The notes: generated by a model from the sequence alone, not told the origin. Positions 9,505 to 22,057 are shown, numbered from the stretch's first letter. The stretch: DNA of 32,000 bases from Nitrosopumilus oxyclinae (GCF_013407165.1 NZ_CP026994.1:834187-866186), one strand, 5' to 3'. Program-made: numbers and translations.

Positions 9505-9578
9505 GCCTCCCTAGCTCAGCGTGGTAGAGCAACCGGCTGTTAACCGGTTGGTCACCAGTTCAAGTCTGGTGGGAGGCG
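9505..9578 (+). tRNA. tRNA-Asn (anticodon GTT)
   Basis: The 7-bp acceptor stem pairs GCCTCCC with GGGAGGC. The D-arm is TAGCTCAGCGTGGTAGAGC. The anticodon stem-loop is AACCGG-CTGTTAA-CCGGTT, with GTT in the anticodon position. The T-arm is CCAGTTCAAGTCTGG and the discriminator is G. No intron and no encoded CCA. Confidence 0.93.
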
Positions 9579-9582
9579 CTTC

Positions 9583-16839: not shown

Positions 16840-17036
16840 ACAATTATGCCTGAAATTGATAGAATTTAACTGCTAGGGCAAGGTCAATTTTCCATTAAAA
16901 GATTGAAGAAACTAGTTTGAATTGTAAAGAGAAAAACAAGATCTATAGATATAGAGATTATTTTAAAATAATAAAAAATTGAGATATGTGAAGGAGAATA
17001 AACTCCCCCACATTTTTGAAGGAGAAATTCTATGGC

Positions 17037-17219
17037 TTATGCCAGTGATGCTACCGTATGGCATAGAATCTCCTCACTGTACATGCATTGACTGTGAAAT
17101 CTAACTTCTGTGGGATTTGTGCATTTTGTACAAAAAAGTTGGAGGGGTTGATTGCAATGAAAACATTGCTTTTCAACATCCAACTCCCCTCCACACACTC
17201 TACACAAAGTGTCTGGCAT
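17037..17219 (-). CDS. Cys-rich mini-protein, paralog 1 of 3 (two predicted zinc sites)
   Basis: 60-aa ORF with C6, C9, C19, C22, C30, C33, H42 and C45, spaced identically to 18372..18557 and 20785..20967. It starts 3 nt after the stop of the upstream TM micro-protein. Confidence 0.7.
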   Translation of the reverse strand: MPDTLCRVCGGELDVEKQCFHCNQPLQLFCTKCTNPTEVRFHSQCMYSEEILCHTVASLA

Positions 17220-17222
17220 TTT

Positions 17223-17381
17223 CTACCACCATGAAACGAGTTGGTAAATATCACCAGTTAGAAATGCAGTTGCGATTCCTGCACCAATGGGCATTCCCAT
17301 TGCTATGCACAGAAGATCAAACTTCACCACTTTCTTAAATGGTGCATGTACCATTTTGTCCCAAGAACTGATTTTTTGCAT
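17223..17381 (-). CDS. Single-TM micro-protein, paralog 1 of 2
   Basis: An ATG at 17381 gives MQKISSWDKMVHAPFKKVVKFDLLCIAMGMPIGAGIATAFL.... The core WDKMVHAPFKKVVKFDL is identical to 20529..20678 but is encoded with 12 synonymous differences. Confidence 0.75.
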   Translation of the reverse strand: MQKISSWDKMVHAPFKKVVKFDLLCIAMGMPIGAGIATAFLTGDIYQLVSWW

Positions 17382-17529
17382 GTTGTTCACCTCAAGGGAA
17401 GTTTCTCCTCCCAATCCTCCATTTGGAAATAATTTCTTCAGGATATGAAGAAACTTTTTCCACGGAAGATTTGACAGACTCTTTGAACTGATTGATTGAT
17501 GAAATGGTTTTCATTGTATCACCCTCCAA

Positions 17530-18024
17530 TCATTCTACTGACACAATCTTGCCTTTGGGTTTTTCTTCGGCAAGAGAGAATGTCAGCTCCAATACGCCGT
17601 TTGTGTATTTTGCTTTTGCGGAATTTTCATCAATGTCATACTTTAATGGAATCTTTGTTCCATACTTTCTTTCTCCGTGTTCAGCAGAGATTGACACGAT
17701 GTTATCTGCAACATTGACCTGAATGTCAGATTTTTCGATTCCTGGCATTTCAGCTACGAGTTGTAAAATGCGTTCTTTTTCATTAATTGTCTCATCCACA
17801 TAGACATCCCGTATGCCAGAATCACTGATTGCAGTGGTTGGTTTTGCATTACCCCATTCTTTTACAACGGGTTTTCCATCAGGTCCCACGGTCATATGAT
17901 AGCCGTAATAGTATGGTCCAATTGTTTGGACTTGGGCTCCGTCTGGAATTTCAAAGACATCCCCCATTGAAAAAAAGGGGCCAGATAATCTTCGAAATGT
18001 TTTTTCGAATTGGTCATCAAACAT
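17530..18024 (-). CDS. hsp20: Small heat shock protein (Hsp20 / alpha-crystallin family)
   Basis: The alpha-crystallin domain is clear: VDETINEKERILQLVAEMPGIEKSDIQVNVADNIVSISAE...AKYTNGVLELTFS. Confidence 0.88.
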   Translation of the reverse strand: MFDDQFEKTFRRLSGPFFSMGDVFEIPDGAQVQTIGPYYYGYHMTVGPDGKPVVKEWGNAKPTTAISDSGIRDVYVDETINEKERILQLVAEMPGIEKSDIQVNVADNIVSISAEHGERKYGTKIPLKYDIDENSAKAKYTNGVLELTFSLAEEKPKGKIVSVE

Positions 18025-18079
18025 CTTTTAATCACCGATTTAATGTAATAGAGATTACAAAATATAAAGATTTTGCATA

Positions 18080-18119
18080 AATTGTCTATATATGACAATT
18101 ATGTCATGTACATGACAAT
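18080..18119. promoter_or_regulatory. Nested palindromes around a TATATAT box in the hsp20 / zinc-finger divergent promoter
   Basis: The sequence reads AATTGTC-tatatat-GACAATT, then ATGACA-atta-TGTCAT, then TGTCATG-ta-CATGACA. The GACAAT/ATTGTC half-site occurs three times within 40 bp. Confidence 0.5.
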
Positions 18120-18150
18120 ATTCAAATATTAGCATTTCAATAAACAGTCC

Positions 18151-18354
18151 ATGCAAACTACGATACAAGAATATGAGAATCAATCAAAACCTAGATCAAG
18201 TAGACAGGTAACCTATTTTTGCAGATTATGTAGAGAATACGGAATAAAAACTCGAAAGGCACATTTACAAAATTACCACAATGCAAACCGAGACACAGTT
18301 ACAAAACGAAGCAATAAGGATCTTGTAGATGTAATTTTTATTGAATCAAGATAA
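18151..18354 (+). CDS. Small C2H2-like zinc-finger protein
   Basis: 67-aa ORF. YFCRLCREYGIKTRKAHLQNYH gives C-x2-C-x10-H-x4-H. Confidence 0.55.
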   Translation: MQTTIQEYENQSKPRSSRQVTYFCRLCREYGIKTRKAHLQNYHNANRDTVTKRSNKDLVDVIFIESR

Positions 18355-18371
18355 TAATTGTATTAAAAAAA

Positions 18372-18557
18372 TTAGTGATGCATATCTGATTCTAAAAGCA
18401 TTCTATTAACATCAATTATCATACATGCAGGATGTGCAATTTTTTCTGCCATTACTCCACAAGTATGACAAAAGAGTCTAGTTGGCTCATTACAGAATTT
18501 GCATCTACGTTCTACTTCTAATCTAGAAGTACATATTCTACAGGATTTGTTTTCCAT
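18372..18557 (-). CDS. Cys-rich mini-protein, paralog 2 of 3
   Basis: 61-aa ORF MENKSCRICTSRLEVERRCKFCNEPTRLFCHTCGVMAEKIAHPAC.... Cys/His spacing is the same as paralogs 1 and 3. Confidence 0.7.
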   Translation of the reverse strand: MENKSCRICTSRLEVERRCKFCNEPTRLFCHTCGVMAEKIAHPACMIIDVNRMLLESDMHH

Positions 18558-18590
18558 AGATACAATATAGTGAAAATAATTTAAAAATTA

Positions 18591-18606
18591 TTCTAAAATT
18601 AGAAAC
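18591..18606. repeat. Short relative of the TTTCTAAA...TTTAGAAA palindrome, lacking the central hexamer
   Basis: ttctaaaattagaaac is followed by a second small hairpin, AATTAG-tttcaa-CTAATT (18611-18628). It lies between the regulator stop and the start of the mini-protein gene. Confidence 0.4.
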
Positions 18607-18679
18607 AGCTAATTAGTTTCAACTAATTTTATAAAATTCAAAAAAGGTTCATTGTCGTTTTGACATATAGAAAGCAAAA

Positions 18680-19480
18680 CTATTCTTTTAATTTACTCTC
18701 TTTGAAAACATCAGAACCATACCAACAATATCTGAAATAGTCAAGACACCATTCATGAAACATTGAATCATCTGAATAAAACATCTCACTAATATCGGAC
18801 TCTCCATCTACTTTTGGAAACATTATGCATGCCTCTTTCTCATTCATCACAAGTACTGTTTGAACATCTTTTGTCATTTTTCTTTGGATTAATCCATCAG
18901 CCATTAATTTATCAAATCCAAATTTCTTGAGAAGTGCCTTCCTTCCTTTTGGAACTACTGCAGATTCAGAAAAAATATAATCAAAGTTTATCCCTTTCTT
19001 GACTTGCTTTATCAGAGGCTCTATCAAATCTAGAGGGACTTCAGATAGCACCTCATAGATATATTCATTAGAATTTTTGTAAATACTCTTCCACTGCTCC
19101 ATTGTTTTAGAAAATCCCTTGACACGCTGACTAACTGCTAATTGCCCACAGCGCATTTGGAATTTATGTGGAATTTCTCCAAAATTGTGCTCTTCAAAAT
19201 ATTTCCTATTTTGTGAAAGGAAAACTAATGAGGGTACCTGAGTGCAAACTGTTTTTCCAAATGTTGTTAACACGTATTTCCCATCATTTTTCTTTTCAAT
19301 CAAACCACTTTCCTCCAATCGTGTGAAATTTCTATGTACTTCTTGTTTAGTTGCACCAATCTCCTTTGCCAATGCAGTCGGGGTAGAATTTTTCTCTAAT
19401 AATTTGAATAAAATTTCCATTCTTTGGGGGCTGGCCAAATCAAGAACATAGTTTGCAGTTTCATCAAAAAGGTCTGTCAA
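18680..19480 (-). CDS. Winged-helix transcriptional regulator with a DUF1724 (FilR1-like) C-terminal domain
   Basis: The N-terminal ArsR-like HTH is RMEILFKLLEKNSTPTALAKEIGATKQEVHRNFTRLEESGLIEK. The C-terminus ...FHEWCLDYFRYCWYGS resembles DUF1724 regulators. The start is an apparent TTG. Confidence 0.6.
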   Translation of the reverse strand: MTDLFDETANYVLDLASPQRMEILFKLLEKNSTPTALAKEIGATKQEVHRNFTRLEESGLIEKKNDGKYVLTTFGKTVCTQVPSLVFLSQNRKYFEEHNFGEIPHKFQMRCGQLAVSQRVKGFSKTMEQWKSIYKNSNEYIYEVLSEVPLDLIEPLIKQVKKGINFDYIFSESAVVPKGRKALLKKFGFDKLMADGLIQRKMTKDVQTVLVMNEKEACIMFPKVDGESDISEMFYSDDSMFHEWCLDYFRYCWYGSDVFKESKLKE

Positions 19481-19521
19481 TGATACGACTACTCAATATA
19501 GGATAAAAATGATTACAGATT

Positions 19522-20511
19522 CTATTCAATTACTTTGATTAGTTCTTTTAGTTTTCTTCTAGATTTTGGAGGTTTTTTCTTATCAGGATATCCAATACAA
19601 AGAATAGATGAAGGTCTCAAATCAGTACCTAAAATTTTCTTTACCTTTTCTTCATCAAACATCCCAATCCAGATCGTACTTAATCCTACACCTGATGCTG
19701 CCAACAATGAAAAGGCAGCCGCAATTGTAGCATCTTGTAATGAAAATTTCTCCAATATTTCTTGAGGGAACTTTAGTTTGACTCTAGAAGGCTCCATACA
19801 AAATACCAAAACTACAGGTGCATTGACATATGGTTGCTTATTTGCAGCCTCTACAAGGGCTTCTTTTGTTTTATCATTTTTAATCAAAAATACCTGAAAT
19901 CCTTGAAAGTTTCCAGCAGTAGGGGCAACATCTGCTGCCGATAAAATCTTGTCAATTTTCCAATCCTCAACTTTGGTTTTAAGAAATTTTCTAGTTGAGC
20001 GTCTAGTAGAGAACACCCTGAACAAATCAGTAGGGGAAAGATCTTGCCTAATTTTTTCAGGTTCTGAAGATAGTATTGCTTCAATGAGGGATTGTTTTGG
20101 ATTTTCTGTAGCAATATCTCCAGATTCTTTATCATCATCTCGAATCCAGACAGAGGGATAGAATTCTTTTGAACCAACGTAAACATATTGTGGTTCATGT
20201 GGGATTTTGGCAAACTCTAAAACTTGTTCTTGTAGTTCAGCAGTCTTTGCCTCAAGTAATCCATGATTTGTTAATGTAAATTGTGTAACATCAGAATTAA
20301 CTCTGATAAAGCTAGACTGATCTTCTAACTCTACTTCACCTGTAGAGTTTTTTTTAAAAATTTCGACCAAACTTTCTAGTTCATTCTTGTTTAGAATGAT
20401 AACATCTGTATCGTCATCATCAACTCCTTTCCAAACTAGCCTACATCCTTCTTTTGATATGTATGACGCCTCAACTGTTTGAAATTGCATTATAGTCATA
20501 TCAATAATCAT
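19522..20511 (-). CDS. Nitroreductase-family protein with an unassigned ~165-aa N-terminal domain
   Basis: The C-terminal ~165 aa (RRSTRKF...ILSAADVAPTAGNFQGFQVFLI...LQDATIAAAFSLLAASGVGLSTIWIG...) have nitroreductase-fold motifs. The N-terminal half matches nothing I recognise. Confidence 0.7.
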   Translation of the reverse strand: MIIDMTIMQFQTVEASYISKEGCRLVWKGVDDDDTDVIILNKNELESLVEIFKKNSTGEVELEDQSSFIRVNSDVTQFTLTNHGLLEAKTAELQEQVLEFAKIPHEPQYVYVGSKEFYPSVWIRDDDKESGDIATENPKQSLIEAILSSEPEKIRQDLSPTDLFRVFSTRRSTRKFLKTKVEDWKIDKILSAADVAPTAGNFQGFQVFLIKNDKTKEALVEAANKQPYVNAPVVLVFCMEPSRVKLKFPQEILEKFSLQDATIAAAFSLLAASGVGLSTIWIGMFDEEKVKKILGTDLRPSSILCIGYPDKKKPPKSRRKLKELIKVIE

Positions 20512-20528
20512 AAAAAATAAGTTTGTTG

Positions 20529-20678
20529 CTAGCCTAATAATCCACTAGCAACAGAGTATGCTCCAATACCCACTCCAATTACTACACCGATTCCCATGCA
20601 GATGAGGTCAAATTTTACGACCTTTTTGAAGGGGGCATGAACCATTTTATCCCAGTTTGAGATTTGATGTGTTTTCAT
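20529..20678 (-). CDS. Single-TM micro-protein, paralog 2 of 2
   Basis: An ATG at 20678 gives MKTHQISNWDKMVHAPFKKVVKFDLICMGIGVVIGVGIGAYSVASGLLG. The start is chosen by alignment with paralog 1; the track ORF extends to 20723. Confidence 0.72.
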   Translation of the reverse strand: MKTHQISNWDKMVHAPFKKVVKFDLICMGIGVVIGVGIGAYSVASGLLG

Positions 20679-20784
20679 GATTATAGTTAGAACTAGTTGC
20701 ATATAGAGTCGGGTAAAACCCATCGATTACAGGTAAGCTAAACAGCTGACCAAGGTATATGATCAATTTTCACATAATTACATC

Positions 20785-20967
20785 ATGAGAATTGATAGTT
20801 GTAGAAAATGTGGAATAGAAATGACAATCAAACAGAAATGCTCAATTTGTCATGAGCCTATCAAGTTTAATTGCAAAAAATGTCATTTTGAATCAGAGGA
20901 ACAAATTCATTCATTGTGTAAAATGACAGATATTAACCACCGGCCATTAATTCCAAAGCCAGCATAG
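20785..20967 (+). CDS. Cys-rich mini-protein, paralog 3 of 3
   Basis: 60-aa ORF MRIDSCRKCGIEMTIKQKCSICHEPIKFNCKKCHFESEEQIHSLC.... It is divergent from TM micro-protein paralog 2. Confidence 0.7.
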   Translation: MRIDSCRKCGIEMTIKQKCSICHEPIKFNCKKCHFESEEQIHSLCKMTDINHRPLIPKPA

Positions 20968-21027: not shown

Positions 21028-21132
21028 TTAATGTAGAAAATATTTTTGAGCATGCACATTAGAACAATTATCTGAGCAAAAACTAGTGGAATCAGGTATA
21101 AAATCATCATCACAGTTTCTACATTTAGGCAT
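21028..21132 (-). CDS. Possible 34-aa CxxC...CxxxC micro-protein
   Basis: An ATG at 21132 gives MPKCRNCDDDFIPDSTSFCSDNCSNVHAQKYFLH, with TAA at 21028-30. It is below the track cutoff. Confidence 0.3.
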   Translation of the reverse strand: MPKCRNCDDDFIPDSTSFCSDNCSNVHAQKYFLH

Positions 21133-21607: not shown

Positions 21608-21703
21608 TTATTTTTTACAACTGTCACAGCTGCAATCAAACATGTCAGCCTTTCCCATGCATTGATCATGGTGTTCATTGTAACATTTGTTACAAATGAC
21701 CAC
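21608..21703 (-). CDS. Possible 31-aa Cys-rich micro-protein coupled to the upstream zinc-finger ORF
   Basis: A GTG at 21703 overlaps the TAG of the upstream ORF (TAGTG). It translates to VVICNKCYNEHHDQCMGKADMFDCSCDSCKK, with TAA at 21608-10. Confidence 0.25.
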   Translation of the reverse strand: MVICNKCYNEHHDQCMGKADMFDCSCDSCKK

Positions 21704-21864
21704 TATGCACTAACCTTCTTAATGTGAGTTTTTTCATGAATCAGTACTTTGTCAAAAGTATCAGAATTTCCATCCCAATGAAAAGTACATACTCTACAAT
21801 TGTATTTCATTTTATTTTGACTTTTCCTCTGTTTTGGTTTCAGACTCTTTGAATGCATTAACAT
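21703..21864 (-). CDS. Small C2H2-like zinc-finger protein
   Basis: YNCRVCTFHWDGNSDTFDKVLIHEKTH gives C-x2-C-x16-H-x3-H, preceded by a basic N-terminus. The start is uncertain: ATG at 21864, TTG at 21894, or the internal MKYNC. Confidence 0.45.
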   Translation of the reverse strand: MLMHSKSLKPKQRKSQNKMKYNCRVCTFHWDGNSDTFDKVLIHEKTHIKKVSA

Positions 21865-22057
21865 CGTCTGCAGATTTGGCCGTACAACAACCAAGTTTTA
21901 ATTTCCCTAGTATTTTTTTGAACATACTTTGTATGATTTTGATTGGATATATACCGACTCTATTATTACATTTCGTGCCTGATTTTCTATATATTTTGGC
22001 ATTTTTCTATGAATTTTAAAGCAAAAATTGATATTCTCATCATTTTACTATATAGAT

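What the first reader, a model, noticed from the sequence alone, without database searches (positions are those of the whole stretch)
17037..20967. Three paralogous ~60-aa mini-proteins with an invariant eight-ligand Cys/His scaffold
ORFs 17037..17219(-), 18372..18557(-) and 20785..20967(+) all place their ligands at C6, C9, C19, C22, C30, C33, H42 and C45. The shared pattern is C-R-x-C-x9-C-x2-C-x-[QE]-P-x4-C-x2-C-x8-H-x2-C. Most other positions differ.

That combination fits a small two-zinc-site fold (C4 plus C2HC) kept under selection in three copies within 4 kb. I cannot assign it to a named family.

The copies sit beside hsp20, a wHTH regulator, a nitroreductase fusion and a paralogous TM micro-protein. 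This hints at a stress or redox-linked module, but the function is pure inference.
Basis: partly seen in the sequence, partly recalled or inferred. Interest (0 to 1): 0.75.

Follow-up and report, generated by a model that had tools for sequence, protein, structure and literature searches.

The report
Thaumarchaeal two-zinc mini-proteins beside Hsp20
Three real, conserved 60-residue genes encode an undescribed family of small zinc-finger proteins found so far only in ammonia-oxidising archaea, and one of the three is always the last gene of a small-heat-shock-protein operon, which gives an otherwise anonymous family a testable link to stress response.

Summary
ORFs 17037-17219(-), 18372-18557(-) and 20785-20967(+) all carry C-x2-C-x9-C-x2-C-x7-C-x2-C-x8-H-x2-C. 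That motif occurs three times in the six-frame translation and never in 200 shuffles.

They are genuine genes. There are three old orthologous groups (A, B, C), about 30-37% identical to each other and 57-96% identical within group B. Every group B ortholog ORF extracted is intact, and median dN/dS is 0.15. The wider family has 295 clusters at 50% identity; every organism name given is Nitrosopumilaceae or Nitrosopumilales.

No Pfam, NCBIfam, PHROG, PADLOC or PDB sequence match reaches threshold. Two AlphaFold models give the same small fold. It implies interleaved metal sites: C6/C9+C30/C33 as a zinc ribbon, and C19/C22+H42/C45. Structure matches are weak and are to zinc ribbons.

Type A is the terminal gene of a conserved operon, hsp20-orf40-(TM micro-protein)-znfA, in 9 of 11 loci. 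Type C is divergent from a TM micro-protein-(nitroreductase)-wHTH unit. Hsp20 is also the commonest neighbour of type B.

Best reading: a lineage-specific family of zinc-binding micro-proteins that act as protein-binding partners or regulators in a proteostasis and stress module. The function is inferred, not shown. Moderately interesting.

The parts
17037..17219 (-). ZnfA, type A mini-protein (60 aa, MPDTLCR...HSQCMY...), terminal gene of the Hsp20 operon
   Evidence: ORF. Orthologs are 70-90% identical in N. cobalaminigenes, N. piranensis and MAGs. It lies directly downstream of Hsp20/orf40/TM1 in L034, L035, L030, L045 and L046. A-like genes do the same in L005, L009 and L010. AF2 pLDDT 76.6.
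17003..17024 (-). Terminator-like hairpin followed by a T-rich tract, 13 nt after the ZnfA stop: likely end of the operon
   Evidence: sequence
17223..17381 (-). TM1 micro-protein (52 aa from ATG 17381; MQKISSWDKMVHAPFKKVV + one TM helix), preceded by SD-like GAGGTGA
   Evidence: It is present or absent between orf40 and ZnfA in different genomes (L030 and L045 lack it).
17392..17514 (-). orf40, conserved 40-aa ORF preceded by SD-like GGAGGGTGAT directly after the Hsp20 stop
   Evidence: 40-80% identity in 8 other loci, always directly after Hsp20
17530..18024 (-). Hsp20/alpha-crystallin small heat-shock protein, first gene of the operon
   Evidence: Pfam PF00011, E 3.5e-10; conserved TATA-like TTTATATTTTGTAA and GGTGAT upstream
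18102..18118 (-). Conserved inverted repeat TTGTCA-N5-TGACA (plus a third TTGTCA half-site) between the divergent Hsp20 and C2H2_67 promoters: candidate operator
   Evidence: Core bases invariant in 6 genomes; the only such site in the window
18151..18354 (+). C2H2_67: basic 67-aa classical C2H2 finger protein, divergent from Hsp20; candidate DNA-binding regulator of the locus
   Evidence: 76-90% identity in L010, L018, L030, L034, L035, L045; pI 9.8
18372..18557 (-). ZnfB, type B mini-protein (61 aa, MENKSCRIC...EPTRLFCHTCG...HPACMIID), own TATA-like promoter
   Evidence: 26 intact ORFs including the window copy, median dN/dS 0.15. AF2 pLDDT 87.3. Hsp20 is its commonest neighbour (11/31 loci).
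18680..19480 (-). wHTH regulator (266 aa, HVO_A0261_N type), upstream of ZnfB
   Evidence: also near family members in L020, L026, L029, L034 and L047
19522..20511 (-). 329-aa protein with an unknown N-terminal half and a C-terminal nitroreductase domain
   Evidence: same position in L047/L048; absent from the N. cobalaminigenes block
20529..20678 (-). TM2 micro-protein (49 aa from ATG 20678), divergent from ZnfC
20785..20967 (+). ZnfC, type C mini-protein (60 aa, MRIDSCRKCG...), divergently transcribed from TM2-nitroreductase-wHTH
   Evidence: same divergent arrangement in L034 and L047/L048

Best explanation
The three ORFs are expressed, protein-coding members of a previously undescribed family of stand-alone ~60-aa zinc-finger micro-proteins. 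The family has been seen so far only in Nitrosopumilaceae and related ammonia-oxidising archaea.

Each protein is one compact domain. A CxxC knuckle (C6/C9) is followed by a long beta-hairpin whose tip carries a second knuckle (C19/C22). A third knuckle (C30/C33) follows, then a helix whose N-terminus supplies H42/C45.

The geometry implies interleaved ('cross-brace') metal sites. Site 1 is C6, C9, C30 and C33, a zinc ribbon at the base of the hairpin. Site 2 is C19, C22, H42 and C45, which is treble-clef-like. The variable C-terminal helix or tail distinguishes the three ancient paralogue groups and most likely sets partner specificity.

Functionally they most likely act as small protein-binding adaptors or regulatory subunits of a stress and proteostasis module. 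Type A is co-transcribed with the small heat-shock protein as hsp20-orf40-(TM1)-znfA, so it is made whenever Hsp20 is induced. It probably modulates or targets Hsp20, or its clients, near the membrane. Types B and C sit in the adjacent wHTH / nitroreductase / TM micro-protein unit.

Shown: the genes are real, under purifying selection, form a distinct family, and have conserved operon linkage. Inferred: metal binding, the cross-brace topology, and the protein-binding and stress function.
For: - **Motif:** present exactly 3 times, against 0 in 200 shuffles.
- **Breadth of the family:** 64 close homologues, all 'hypothetical' and all Nitrosopumilus, Nitrosarchaeum or archaeon. There are 295 clusters at 50% identity, mostly 45-80 aa and starting at M1.
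- **Ligand conservation:** seven ligands are about 97-100% conserved.
- **Coding constraint:** all 26 type B ORFs compared (25 loci plus the window) are intact; median dN/dS is 0.15 and the maximum is 0.49.
- **Translation signals:** SD-like sequences precede orf40 and TM1, there are 3-15 nt gaps between the operon genes, and a terminator-like hairpin follows ZnfA.
- **Operon conservation with different outer flanks:** N. cobalaminigenes, N. piranensis, L030, L005, L009 and L010. Two independently sampled A-type loci, L045 and L046, show the same operon, and L046 lies next to a thermosome gene.
- **Type B neighbours:** Hsp20 is the commonest neighbour, in 11 of 31 loci.
- **Type C arrangement:** the divergent layout recurs in L034 and L047.
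- **Predicted fold:** two AF2 models (pLDDT 87.3 and 76.6) give the same strand 12/14-18, strand 25-29/30 and helix from 43. C9 and C19 therefore lie at opposite ends of a 5-7 residue strand.
- **Structure matches:** the best Foldseek superpositions are single C4 zinc ribbons over about 38 residues. These are A. fulgidus Trm112 (rmsd 2.2 A, TM 0.47-0.49), NudC and Rpb9.
- **Charge:** type A proteins are mostly acidic or neutral (net -4 to +3), which argues against nucleic-acid binding.
- **Membrane-proximal variants:** some A-like relatives are fused to a TM helix plus a ~110-aa external domain (P0188, P0196, P0212).
Against: - No experiment shows expression, metal content or any partner.
- Work on haloarchaeal C(P)XCG micro-proteins shows that predicted zinc fingers can be metal-free or bind other metals, and that AlphaFold2 cannot tell which (PMC11241148).
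- All sampled genomes are fairly close relatives, so part of the Hsp20 linkage could be inherited synteny rather than functional coupling.
- 20 of 31 type B loci have no Hsp20 within 3 kb.
- Four TM micro-protein loci have no ZnF nearby.
- The fused relative P0196 sits beside arsenic-resistance-type genes, not beside Hsp20.
Confidence: 0.6

Rival explanations
1. They are small transcription regulators, like haloarchaeal Brz, or RNA-polymerase or TFB-interacting zinc ribbons. In this reading they control the adjacent genes. ZnfA would autoregulate the hsp20 operon from its last position, as HspR does in the bacterial dnaK operon.
For: Family members lie next to wHTH regulators and, in four loci, next to TFB paralogues. 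A conserved operator-like inverted repeat lies in the hsp20 promoter region. Types B and C are mildly basic in some species. Brz is a precedent for a ~60-aa archaeal zinc-finger regulator (PMC2253796).
Against: Type A, the one in the hsp20 operon, is mostly acidic or neutral. No family-wide basic surface is evident from the sequences. The strongly basic, conserved C2H2_67 and the wHTH protein are better candidates for binding the operator. There is no similarity to Brz or to any DNA-binding family.
Confidence: 0.22
2. Same family and role, but the fold is a sequential double zinc ribbon (DZR-like). Site 1 would be C6/C9/C19/C22 and site 2 C30/C33/H42/C45, arising from an internal duplication of a CxxC-x8-9-[CH]xxC unit.
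For: The motif looks like a tandem repeat of two CxxC-x8/9-[C/H]xxC units. Short ribbons with about 9-residue spacers exist, and there are weak Pfam DZR / Zn_ribbon_6 hits (best E 1.2e-4, 6 of 67 members). One natural variant lacks C30 and C45 together.
Against: Both AF2 models put a single 5-7 residue strand between C9 and C19, paired with strand 25-30. That places C9 and C19 too far apart to share a metal. The Foldseek match to the double ribbon YfgJ is poor (TM 0.19), whereas single ribbons with about 20-residue spacing superpose at 2.2-3.8 A. A degenerate copy in L013 has lost C9, C30 and C33 but keeps C19 and C22.
Confidence: 0.15
3. They are metal- or redox-handling proteins rather than structural zinc fingers. 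Examples would be Cu(I) or Zn buffers or chaperones, or thiol switches that release metal on oxidation, as Hsp33 does. That would fit a copper-dependent organism.
For: Seven to eight thiol or imidazole ligands sit within 45 residues. N. maritimus Hsp20 genes are reported to respond to copper stress (Qin et al. 2017, as cited in bioRxiv 10.1101/175141). Nearby genes are redox-flavoured: a nitroreductase and PNPOx in the window, and a thioredoxin-domain gene directly after P0102. Some haloarchaeal CPXCG proteins bind metals other than zinc (PMC11241148).
Against: Rigid, invariant ligand spacing with a conserved hairpin and helix is typical of structural sites. There are no CxC, CC or Met-rich Cu(I) motifs. 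The copy number and conserved variable tails suggest partner specificity rather than bulk buffering. There is no link to copper-handling genes in the conserved operon.
Confidence: 0.1
4. The ORFs are chance or non-functional reading frames in AT-rich intergenic DNA.
For: They are short, absent from curated family libraries, and some genome annotations miss or mis-start them (80-aa extended versions).
Against: Motif 3 against 0 in shuffles; intact orthologues in more than 30 genomes with dN/dS of 0.15; 295 clusters; confident AF2 fold.
Confidence: 0.01

Closest known systems
Haloarchaeal C(P)XCG zinc-finger micro-proteins (HVO_2753, HVO_0758; Brz of Halobacterium)
   Same: They are stand-alone archaeal proteins of about 60 aa built almost entirely of CxxC knuckles. 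HVO_2753 also has four motifs and two predicted sites. The first knuckle here is C-R-x-C-G, close to C(P)XCG. Their roles are regulatory or partner-binding rather than enzymatic (PMC11241148, PMC10716476, PMC2253796).
   Different: There is no detectable sequence similarity: the PDB profile search at E<=10 does not retrieve them. The fourth pair here is HxxC. The lineage differs (Nitrosopumilaceae, not Halobacteria). The spacing is fixed and the operon context with Hsp20 is distinct.
Eukaryotic cross-brace C4-C2HC fingers: zf-HIT (PF04438) and MYND; also B-box, FYVE and RING
   Same: They have eight ligands in the same order and of the same type (C2-C2-C2-HC). The predicted binding is interleaved, the last pair lies in a C-terminal helix, the domain is about 40-45 residues, and these domains mediate protein-protein interactions. 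Weak sub-threshold hits go to zf-B_box (20/67 members), ANCHR B-box (18) and zf-HIT (6).
   Different: All scores are below the curated cut-offs. The hhalign alignment to the ZNHIT1 HIT domain is out of register (our pairs 2-3 align to HIT pairs 1-2; probability 46%), and the MYND comparison gives 4.8%. The histidine spacing is H-x2-C rather than H-x3-C. There is no significant structural match.
Classical single-site zinc ribbons (archaeal Trm112, NudC N-terminal ribbon, Rpb9/TFS, ribosomal zinc-ribbon proteins)
   Same: These give the best structural superpositions. A. fulgidus Trm112 (57 aa) aligns at rmsd 2.2 A over 38 columns with TM 0.47-0.49. The layout is two knuckles flanking a beta-hairpin.
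   Different: Those proteins bind one metal. Here a second knuckle at the hairpin tip plus HxxC adds a second site. There is no Trm112 sequence signature and no Pfam hit, and the matches are statistically insignificant (E >= 0.45).
Double zinc ribbon families (Pfam DZR PF12773, Zn_ribbon_6/YfgJ PF07191)
   Same: Four CxxC-type pairs in 45-65 residues; weak sequence hits (best E 1.2e-4).
   Different: The hits are below cut-off. The predicted topology is interleaved, not two sequential ribbons. The structural match to YfgJ is poor (TM 0.19).

Membership tests
zf-HIT (PF04438) | Score at or above the Pfam gathering threshold (24.7 bits) | tested here: not met
   Best 18.3 bits (ZnfC only); 6 of 67 members give E<0.01 and none reaches the cut-off.
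zf-HIT (PF04438) | In-register alignment of all eight ligands (C2-C2-C2-HC) with a HIT domain | tested here: not met
   hhalign against the ZNHIT1 HIT domain aligns only 19 columns, shifted by one ligand pair; probability 46%.
MYND zinc finger | Sequence or profile similarity, including the C-x2-C...H-x3-C signature | tested here: not met
   No Pfam zf-MYND hit at E<=10. hhalign against the ETO MYND domain gives probability 4.8%. The spacing here is H-x2-C.
B-box zinc finger (PF00643 / PF22586) | Score at or above the gathering threshold (24.1 / 27 bits) | tested here: not met
   Best 18.1 and 17.1 bits, covering residues 16-35 only.
Double zinc ribbon (PF12773 DZR; PF07191 Zn_ribbon_6) | Score at or above the gathering threshold (27.3 / 25 bits) | tested here: not met
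   12-20 bits.
Double zinc ribbon (PF12773 DZR; PF07191 Zn_ribbon_6) | Two sequential, independent ribbons | tested here: inconclusive
   The AF2 secondary structure implies an interleaved arrangement, but no coordinates or experimental structure were available.
Cross-brace (interleaved) two-zinc fold class | Ligand pairs 1+3 and 2+4 each share one metal | tested here: inconclusive
   This is deduced from the DSSP strings of two AF2 models and from superposition on single ribbons. It has not been verified experimentally.
Zinc-binding protein (any) | Stoichiometric bound Zn(II) | not testable with these tools
   Needs ICP-MS, native MS or a PAR assay. PMC11241148 shows that sequence and AF2 are not sufficient.
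Archaeal Trm112 | Pfam Trm112p signature and methyltransferase partnership | tested here: not met
   No Trm112p hit at E<=10. There is only an insignificant structural resemblance (E 0.45). No methyltransferase neighbour appears in the conserved block.
Haloarchaeal C(P)XCG micro-proteins (HVO_2753 / HVO_0758 / Brz) | Detectable homology to a characterised member | tested here: not met
   The profile search of all PDB chains, which should include the solved HVO_2753 and HVO_0758 NMR structures described in PMC11241148 and PMC10716476, retrieves neither at E<=10.
Phage or defence-system small proteins | Match to PHROGs or PADLOC models | tested here: not met
   0 hits for all three proteins.

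The most novel reading that the evidence does not exclude
The family may be an archaeal, stand-alone counterpart, either ancestral or convergent, of the eukaryotic C4-C2HC cross-brace fingers of the zf-HIT/MYND type. It may also work as a dedicated cofactor of an alpha-crystallin/CS-fold chaperone. In eukaryotes, zf-HIT proteins partner with the CS-domain protein Pih1 in the R2TP chaperone system (from my own knowledge, not tested here). Here a finger with the same ligand pattern is co-operonic with Hsp20, whose sequence also gives a weak PIH1_CS hit. If this is right, it would show a prokaryotic 'zinc finger + sHsp/CS' chaperone-adaptor pair in an archaeal lineage.
Probability: 0.05. Interest if true: 0.8.

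Novelty: new variant of a known kind. Interest (0 to 1): 0.45.

Why it matters
Ammonia-oxidising archaea are among the most abundant microbes in the ocean, yet their stress biology is poorly known and their genomes contain many unannotated Cys-rich micro-ORFs. This work does three things. It defines one such family (about 300 clusters, three ancient paralogue groups). It shows that the family is under strong purifying selection. It ties one paralogue to a conserved four-gene small-heat-shock operon, hsp20-orf40-TM micro-protein-znfA, with a conserved operator-like site and a divergent C2H2 mini-protein.

That turns three anonymous ORFs into a concrete, testable module. One can ask whether the micro-proteins are co-induced with Hsp20 under heat, starvation or copper stress. 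One can also ask whether they bind Hsp20 or the membrane micro-protein. The work also flags genes that annotation pipelines miss or mis-start. The fold itself is a variation on zinc ribbon and cross-brace themes, not a new principle.

Tried and rejected
- **Curated family libraries.** Pfam, NCBIfam, PHROGs and PADLOC scans of the three proteins, and Pfam on all 67 aligned members, gave only sub-threshold zinc-finger noise.
- **PDB sequence search.** The profile search found nothing below E 0.039.
- **ZNHIT1 lead.** Chain B of the SRCAP entries gave TM 0.51 but rmsd 8.7 A. I confirmed that ZNHIT1 is in those entries but could not confirm that chain B is ZNHIT1. hhalign to its HIT domain is out of register, so the lead was dropped.
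- **MYND.** Rejected.
- **Obligatory TM micro-protein + ZnF pair.** Rejected as a general rule. Four unbiased TM micro-protein loci have no ZnF within 3 kb, and no fused TM-ZnF forms appear among the top 120 TM homologues. It remains possible for the TM1/ZnfA subtype.
- **Shared upstream operator.** The ZnfB-upstream palindrome AATTAGTT-N2-AACTAATT has no meaningful second copy in the window. The hsp20 inverted repeat is unique to that promoter. There is therefore no evidence for one shared operator across the three ZnF genes.
- **Overlapping RNA genes.** Rfam and tRNA scans found none in the region.
- **Taxonomy of distant subgroups.** Cluster look-ups for the MAQTLCIKC... proteins with long tails returned no organism names. 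Whether the family extends beyond Nitrosopumilales is unresolved.
- **Literature.** Searches found no paper on this family.

Full report
**Observation**

The three ORFs are present exactly as described: 17037-17219(-), 18372-18557(-) and 20785-20967(+). I call them ZnfA, ZnfB and ZnfC.

All three place C6, C9, C19, C22, C30, C33, H42 and C45 identically. R7 and P25 are invariant, and position 24 is Q or E. Pairwise identity is only 32-37%.

A six-frame regex scan finds the strict motif C..C-x9-C..C-x7-C..C-x8-H..C three times in the window. It finds none in 200 shuffles. Even a stop-free CxxC-x6-20-CxxC is expected only 0.25 times per shuffled window.

**Are they genes?**

A profile of the three retrieved 64 proteins at E between 2e-23 and 1.6e-6 from a 5.8-billion-sequence collection. 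All are annotated 'hypothetical'. Every organism name is Nitrosopumilus, Nitrosarchaeum or 'archaeon'.

The hits fall into three orthologous groups:

| Group | Start of sequence | Characteristic later motif |
|---|---|---|
| A | MPDTLCR | HSQCMY |
| B | MENKSCKIC | EPTRLFCHTCG ... HPACMIID |
| C | MRIDSCRKCG | - |

Identity is about 65-90% within a group and about 30% between groups.

An exhaustive HMMER search of 1.84 billion cluster representatives found 295 clusters at E<=1e-3. Nearly all are 45-80 aa long with the finger starting five residues after Met1. Among 150 representatives, seven ligands are 97-100% conserved. C45 is missing in about 16%.

A genome scan with the type B profile returned 33 loci, almost all from Nitrosopumilaceae genomes and MAGs. 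All 26 full-length type B ORFs compared (25 loci plus the window copy) are intact. Nei-Gojobori analysis of the first 50 codons gives mean pS 0.65 against pN 0.16. Median dN/dS is 0.15 and the maximum is 0.49.

**Is it a known family?**

No. Pfam gives only sub-threshold hits, and NCBIfam gives nothing relevant:

| Pfam model | Best score (bits) | Cut-off (bits) |
|---|---|---|
| zf-HIT | 18.3 | 24.7 |
| zf-B_box | 18.1 | 24.1 |
| DZR | 12-15 | 27.3 |

I scanned all 67 aligned members individually. The most frequent weak hits are zf-B_box (20 members), ANCHR B-box (18), DZR (6) and zf-HIT (6). None reaches a cut-off.

A profile search of all PDB chain sequences finds nothing below E 0.039; the top hits are FYVE, YfgJ, Elf1 and Mdm2 RING. 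PHROGs and PADLOC give no hits.

hhalign against a verified ZNHIT1 HIT domain aligns 19 columns one ligand pair out of register, at probability 46%. The comparison with the ETO MYND domain gives 4.8%. Literature searches found no description of the family.

**Fold**

AlphaFold2 on ZnfB, with a 67-sequence alignment, gives pLDDT 87.3. It predicts strands 14-18 and 25-29 and a helix at 43-59.

ZnfA, with a different 104-sequence alignment, gives pLDDT 76.6. It predicts strands 12-18 and 25-30 and a helix at 43-50.

In both models C19/C22 lie in the loop at the tip of a long beta-hairpin. C6/C9 precede the hairpin and C30/C33 follow it, so both sit at its base. H42/C45 open the helix.

A 5-7 residue extended strand separates C9 from C19, so those two cannot share a metal. 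The geometry implies site 1 = C6, C9, C30, C33 (a zinc ribbon). Site 2 = C19, C22, H42, C45 (a knuckle plus a helix N-terminus, treble-clef-like).

Foldseek finds no significant PDB match (best E 0.45). The best superpositions are all single C4 zinc ribbons aligned over about 38 residues. These are A. fulgidus Trm112 (rmsd 2.2 A, TM 0.47-0.49), the NudC ribbon and Rpb9. The double ribbon YfgJ fits poorly (TM 0.19).

**Context: type A**

On the minus strand of the window the genes run as follows:

- Hsp20, 18024-17530.
- A 40-aa ORF, 17514-17392, preceded by GGAGGGTGAT.
- The TM1 micro-protein, 17381-17223, preceded by GAGGTGA.
- ZnfA, 17219-17037.
- A hairpin plus T-tract at 17024-17003.

The same order, hsp20-orf40-TM1-znfA, occurs in N. 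cobalaminigenes and N. piranensis, with different outer flanks. It occurs in L030 and L045 without TM1. A-like 'MPDESCR' genes follow Hsp20 in L005, L009 and L010.

L045 and L046 were sampled independently of type B, through A-type proteins only 53-54% identical to ZnfA. Both have the operon, and in L046 it sits beside a thermosome gene.

Nine of eleven A-type genes in hand lie directly downstream of hsp20 on the same strand. A tenth lies within 700 bp of it (L018). The eleventh is 7 kb away (L001).

Some database entries for type A carry a spurious 20-aa N-terminal extension. That extension is the translated orf40/SD region, which shows that TM1 is an insertion/deletion polymorphism at exactly that junction.

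**Context: the rest of the block**

A basic 67-aa classical C2H2 protein (18151-18354) is always divergent from hsp20. The shared intergenic region carries a conserved TTGTCA-N5-TGACA inverted repeat between the two TATA-like boxes.

ZnfC is divergently transcribed from TM2-(nitroreductase fusion)-wHTH266. This is seen in the window, in N. cobalaminigenes (without the nitroreductase) and in an independent metagenome contig.

ZnfB follows wHTH266 in the window. Across 31 type B loci its commonest neighbour within 3 kb is Hsp20 (11 loci). Next come C2H2_67 (5), wHTH266 (4) and a TFB paralogue (4).

Family members also cluster with each other: 12 of the 36 loci examined at that point carry two or three copies.

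**Mechanism**

The following points are shown:

- A conserved, selected micro-protein family.
- A compact predicted fold with eight metal-ligand positions.
- Conserved co-operonic linkage of type A with hsp20.

The function is inferred. Type A proteins are mostly acidic or neutral, with net charge -4 to +3. None of the groups is consistently basic. This argues for protein binding rather than nucleic-acid binding.

The conserved core with variable C-terminal helix or tail suggests a common scaffold with paralogue-specific partners. Some A-like relatives are fused to a TM helix and a ~110-aa external domain (P0188, P0196, P0212). ZnfA also follows an N-in TM micro-protein gene. Together these hint at action near the membrane.

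I therefore favour small zinc-stabilised adaptor or regulatory subunits of a stress and proteostasis module, with ZnfA made together with Hsp20. Published data show that thaumarchaeal Hsp20 genes respond to heat, ammonia limitation and copper stress (PMC12974425; bioRxiv 10.1101/175141). None of those studies reports on these micro-ORFs.

**Rivals**

- A Brz-like transcription regulator. Adjacency to regulators and an operator-like site favour it. The acidity of type A, and the better DNA-binding candidates next door, count against it.
- A sequential double-ribbon topology.
- A metal- or redox-handling role.
- Chance ORFs. This is refuted.

The idea that TM micro-proteins and ZnFs form an obligatory pair is not supported. 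The TM family is large (308 proteins at E<=0.001, all with Nitrosopumilaceae names) and multi-copy. Four independently sampled TM loci have no ZnF within 3 kb.

**Verdict**

The family is a new, lineage-restricted variant of the archaeal zinc-finger micro-protein theme. It is closest in concept to the haloarchaeal C(P)XCG proteins, and closest in ligand pattern to cross-brace C4-C2HC fingers, but it is not a member of any of them.

Its main value is the robust link to the hsp20 operon, which makes its function testable. Interest is moderate (0.45).

Noticed in passing
window 17392-17514 (-): orf40 is a conserved 40-aa ORF (...VSS[YF]PEE.I.KW[KR]IG[RK][RK]NFP, pI 10) with its own SD. It always lies immediately downstream of Hsp20 and is found in 8 other loci. 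It has no family match and is probably a further unannotated micro-protein of the operon.
   Followed up: partly
window 18151-18354 (+): A 67-aa basic (pI 9.8) classical C2H2 finger protein (FCRLC-x12-HLQNYH). It is 76-90% conserved and always divergent from Hsp20 in six other genomes. It has no Pfam hit and is a candidate regulator of the hsp20 promoter.
   Followed up: partly
window 18090-18125: Conserved inverted repeat TTGTCA-N5-TGACA, followed by another TTGTCA, between the TATA-like boxes of Hsp20 and C2H2_67. The core bases are invariant in 6 genomes and the site is unique in the window. It is a candidate heat-shock operator.
   Followed up: partly
window 18611-18628: A perfect 8-bp inverted repeat, AATTAGTT-N2-AACTAATT, between the wHTH266 stop and the ZnfB start. 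A degenerate overlapping copy lies at 18597-18614. Its function (operator or terminator) was not examined in other genomes.
   Followed up: no
window 17223-17381 (-) and 20529-20678 (-): The TM micro-protein family (W[DN]KMVHAPFKKVV + a Gly-rich TM helix, 45-67 aa) gave 308 hits at E<=0.001. All organism names are Nitrosopumilaceae and the family is multi-copy per genome. The TM2 subtype recurs next to nitroreductase-fusion and wHTH266 genes (L041, L043, L047) rather than next to ZnFs.
   Followed up: partly
window 21028-21132 (-), 21608-21703 (-), 21703-21894 (-): Three more Cys/His-rich mini-ORFs lie just downstream of ZnfC. The 31-aa one (MVICNKCYNEHHDQC...) is 71-74% conserved near type B genes in L017 and L019. 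The 63-aa one has a C2H2-like motif. The region is an island of small metal-finger ORFs.
   Followed up: partly
window 19522-20511 (-): The 329-aa nitroreductase protein has an N-terminal ~160 residues with no Pfam match. The gene is present between TM2 and wHTH266 in the window and in L047/L048, but absent from the otherwise syntenic N. cobalaminigenes block.
   Followed up: no
L010 7660-8139: The Hsp20 orthologue in this MAG has two in-frame stops and a garbled N-terminal third. It is either a pseudogene or an assembly or frameshift error. The downstream A-like ZnF is intact.
   Followed up: no
P0145 (193 aa, 678-bp ENA contig): A family member whose C-terminal part hits Pfam Synaptobrevin above the curated cut-off (29.8 against 26.4 bits, E 5e-7). 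It is a single-member cluster on a very short contig and may be a chimeric assembly. If real, it would be an odd ZnF-SNARE-like fusion.
   Followed up: no
P0188, P0196, P0212; L036 6001-6681: A-like ZnFs are fused to a TM helix and a conserved ~110-aa extracytoplasmic domain (NCL..G.G.S..V.CPT..G..Y.A) with no Pfam match. In L036 the gene overlaps the end of a 349-aa unknown gene and sits beside ArsR/LMWPc/MIP genes.
   Followed up: partly
L001, L013, L014, L025 (within 3 kb of type B): A TFB (TFIIB-like) paralogue recurs near type B ZnF genes in four loci.
   Followed up: no
L034 6345-6518 (-) and 4635-4853 (-): N. cobalaminigenes has two further Cys-rich small ORFs inside or beside the syntenic block: a 57-aa MDDDCENC... 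and a basic 72-aa ORF with several CxxC motifs. Neither has a counterpart at the corresponding place in the window.
   Followed up: no
window 9505-9579 (+): tRNA-Asn (GTT), the only Rfam or ARAGORN hit in the window.
   Followed up: yes
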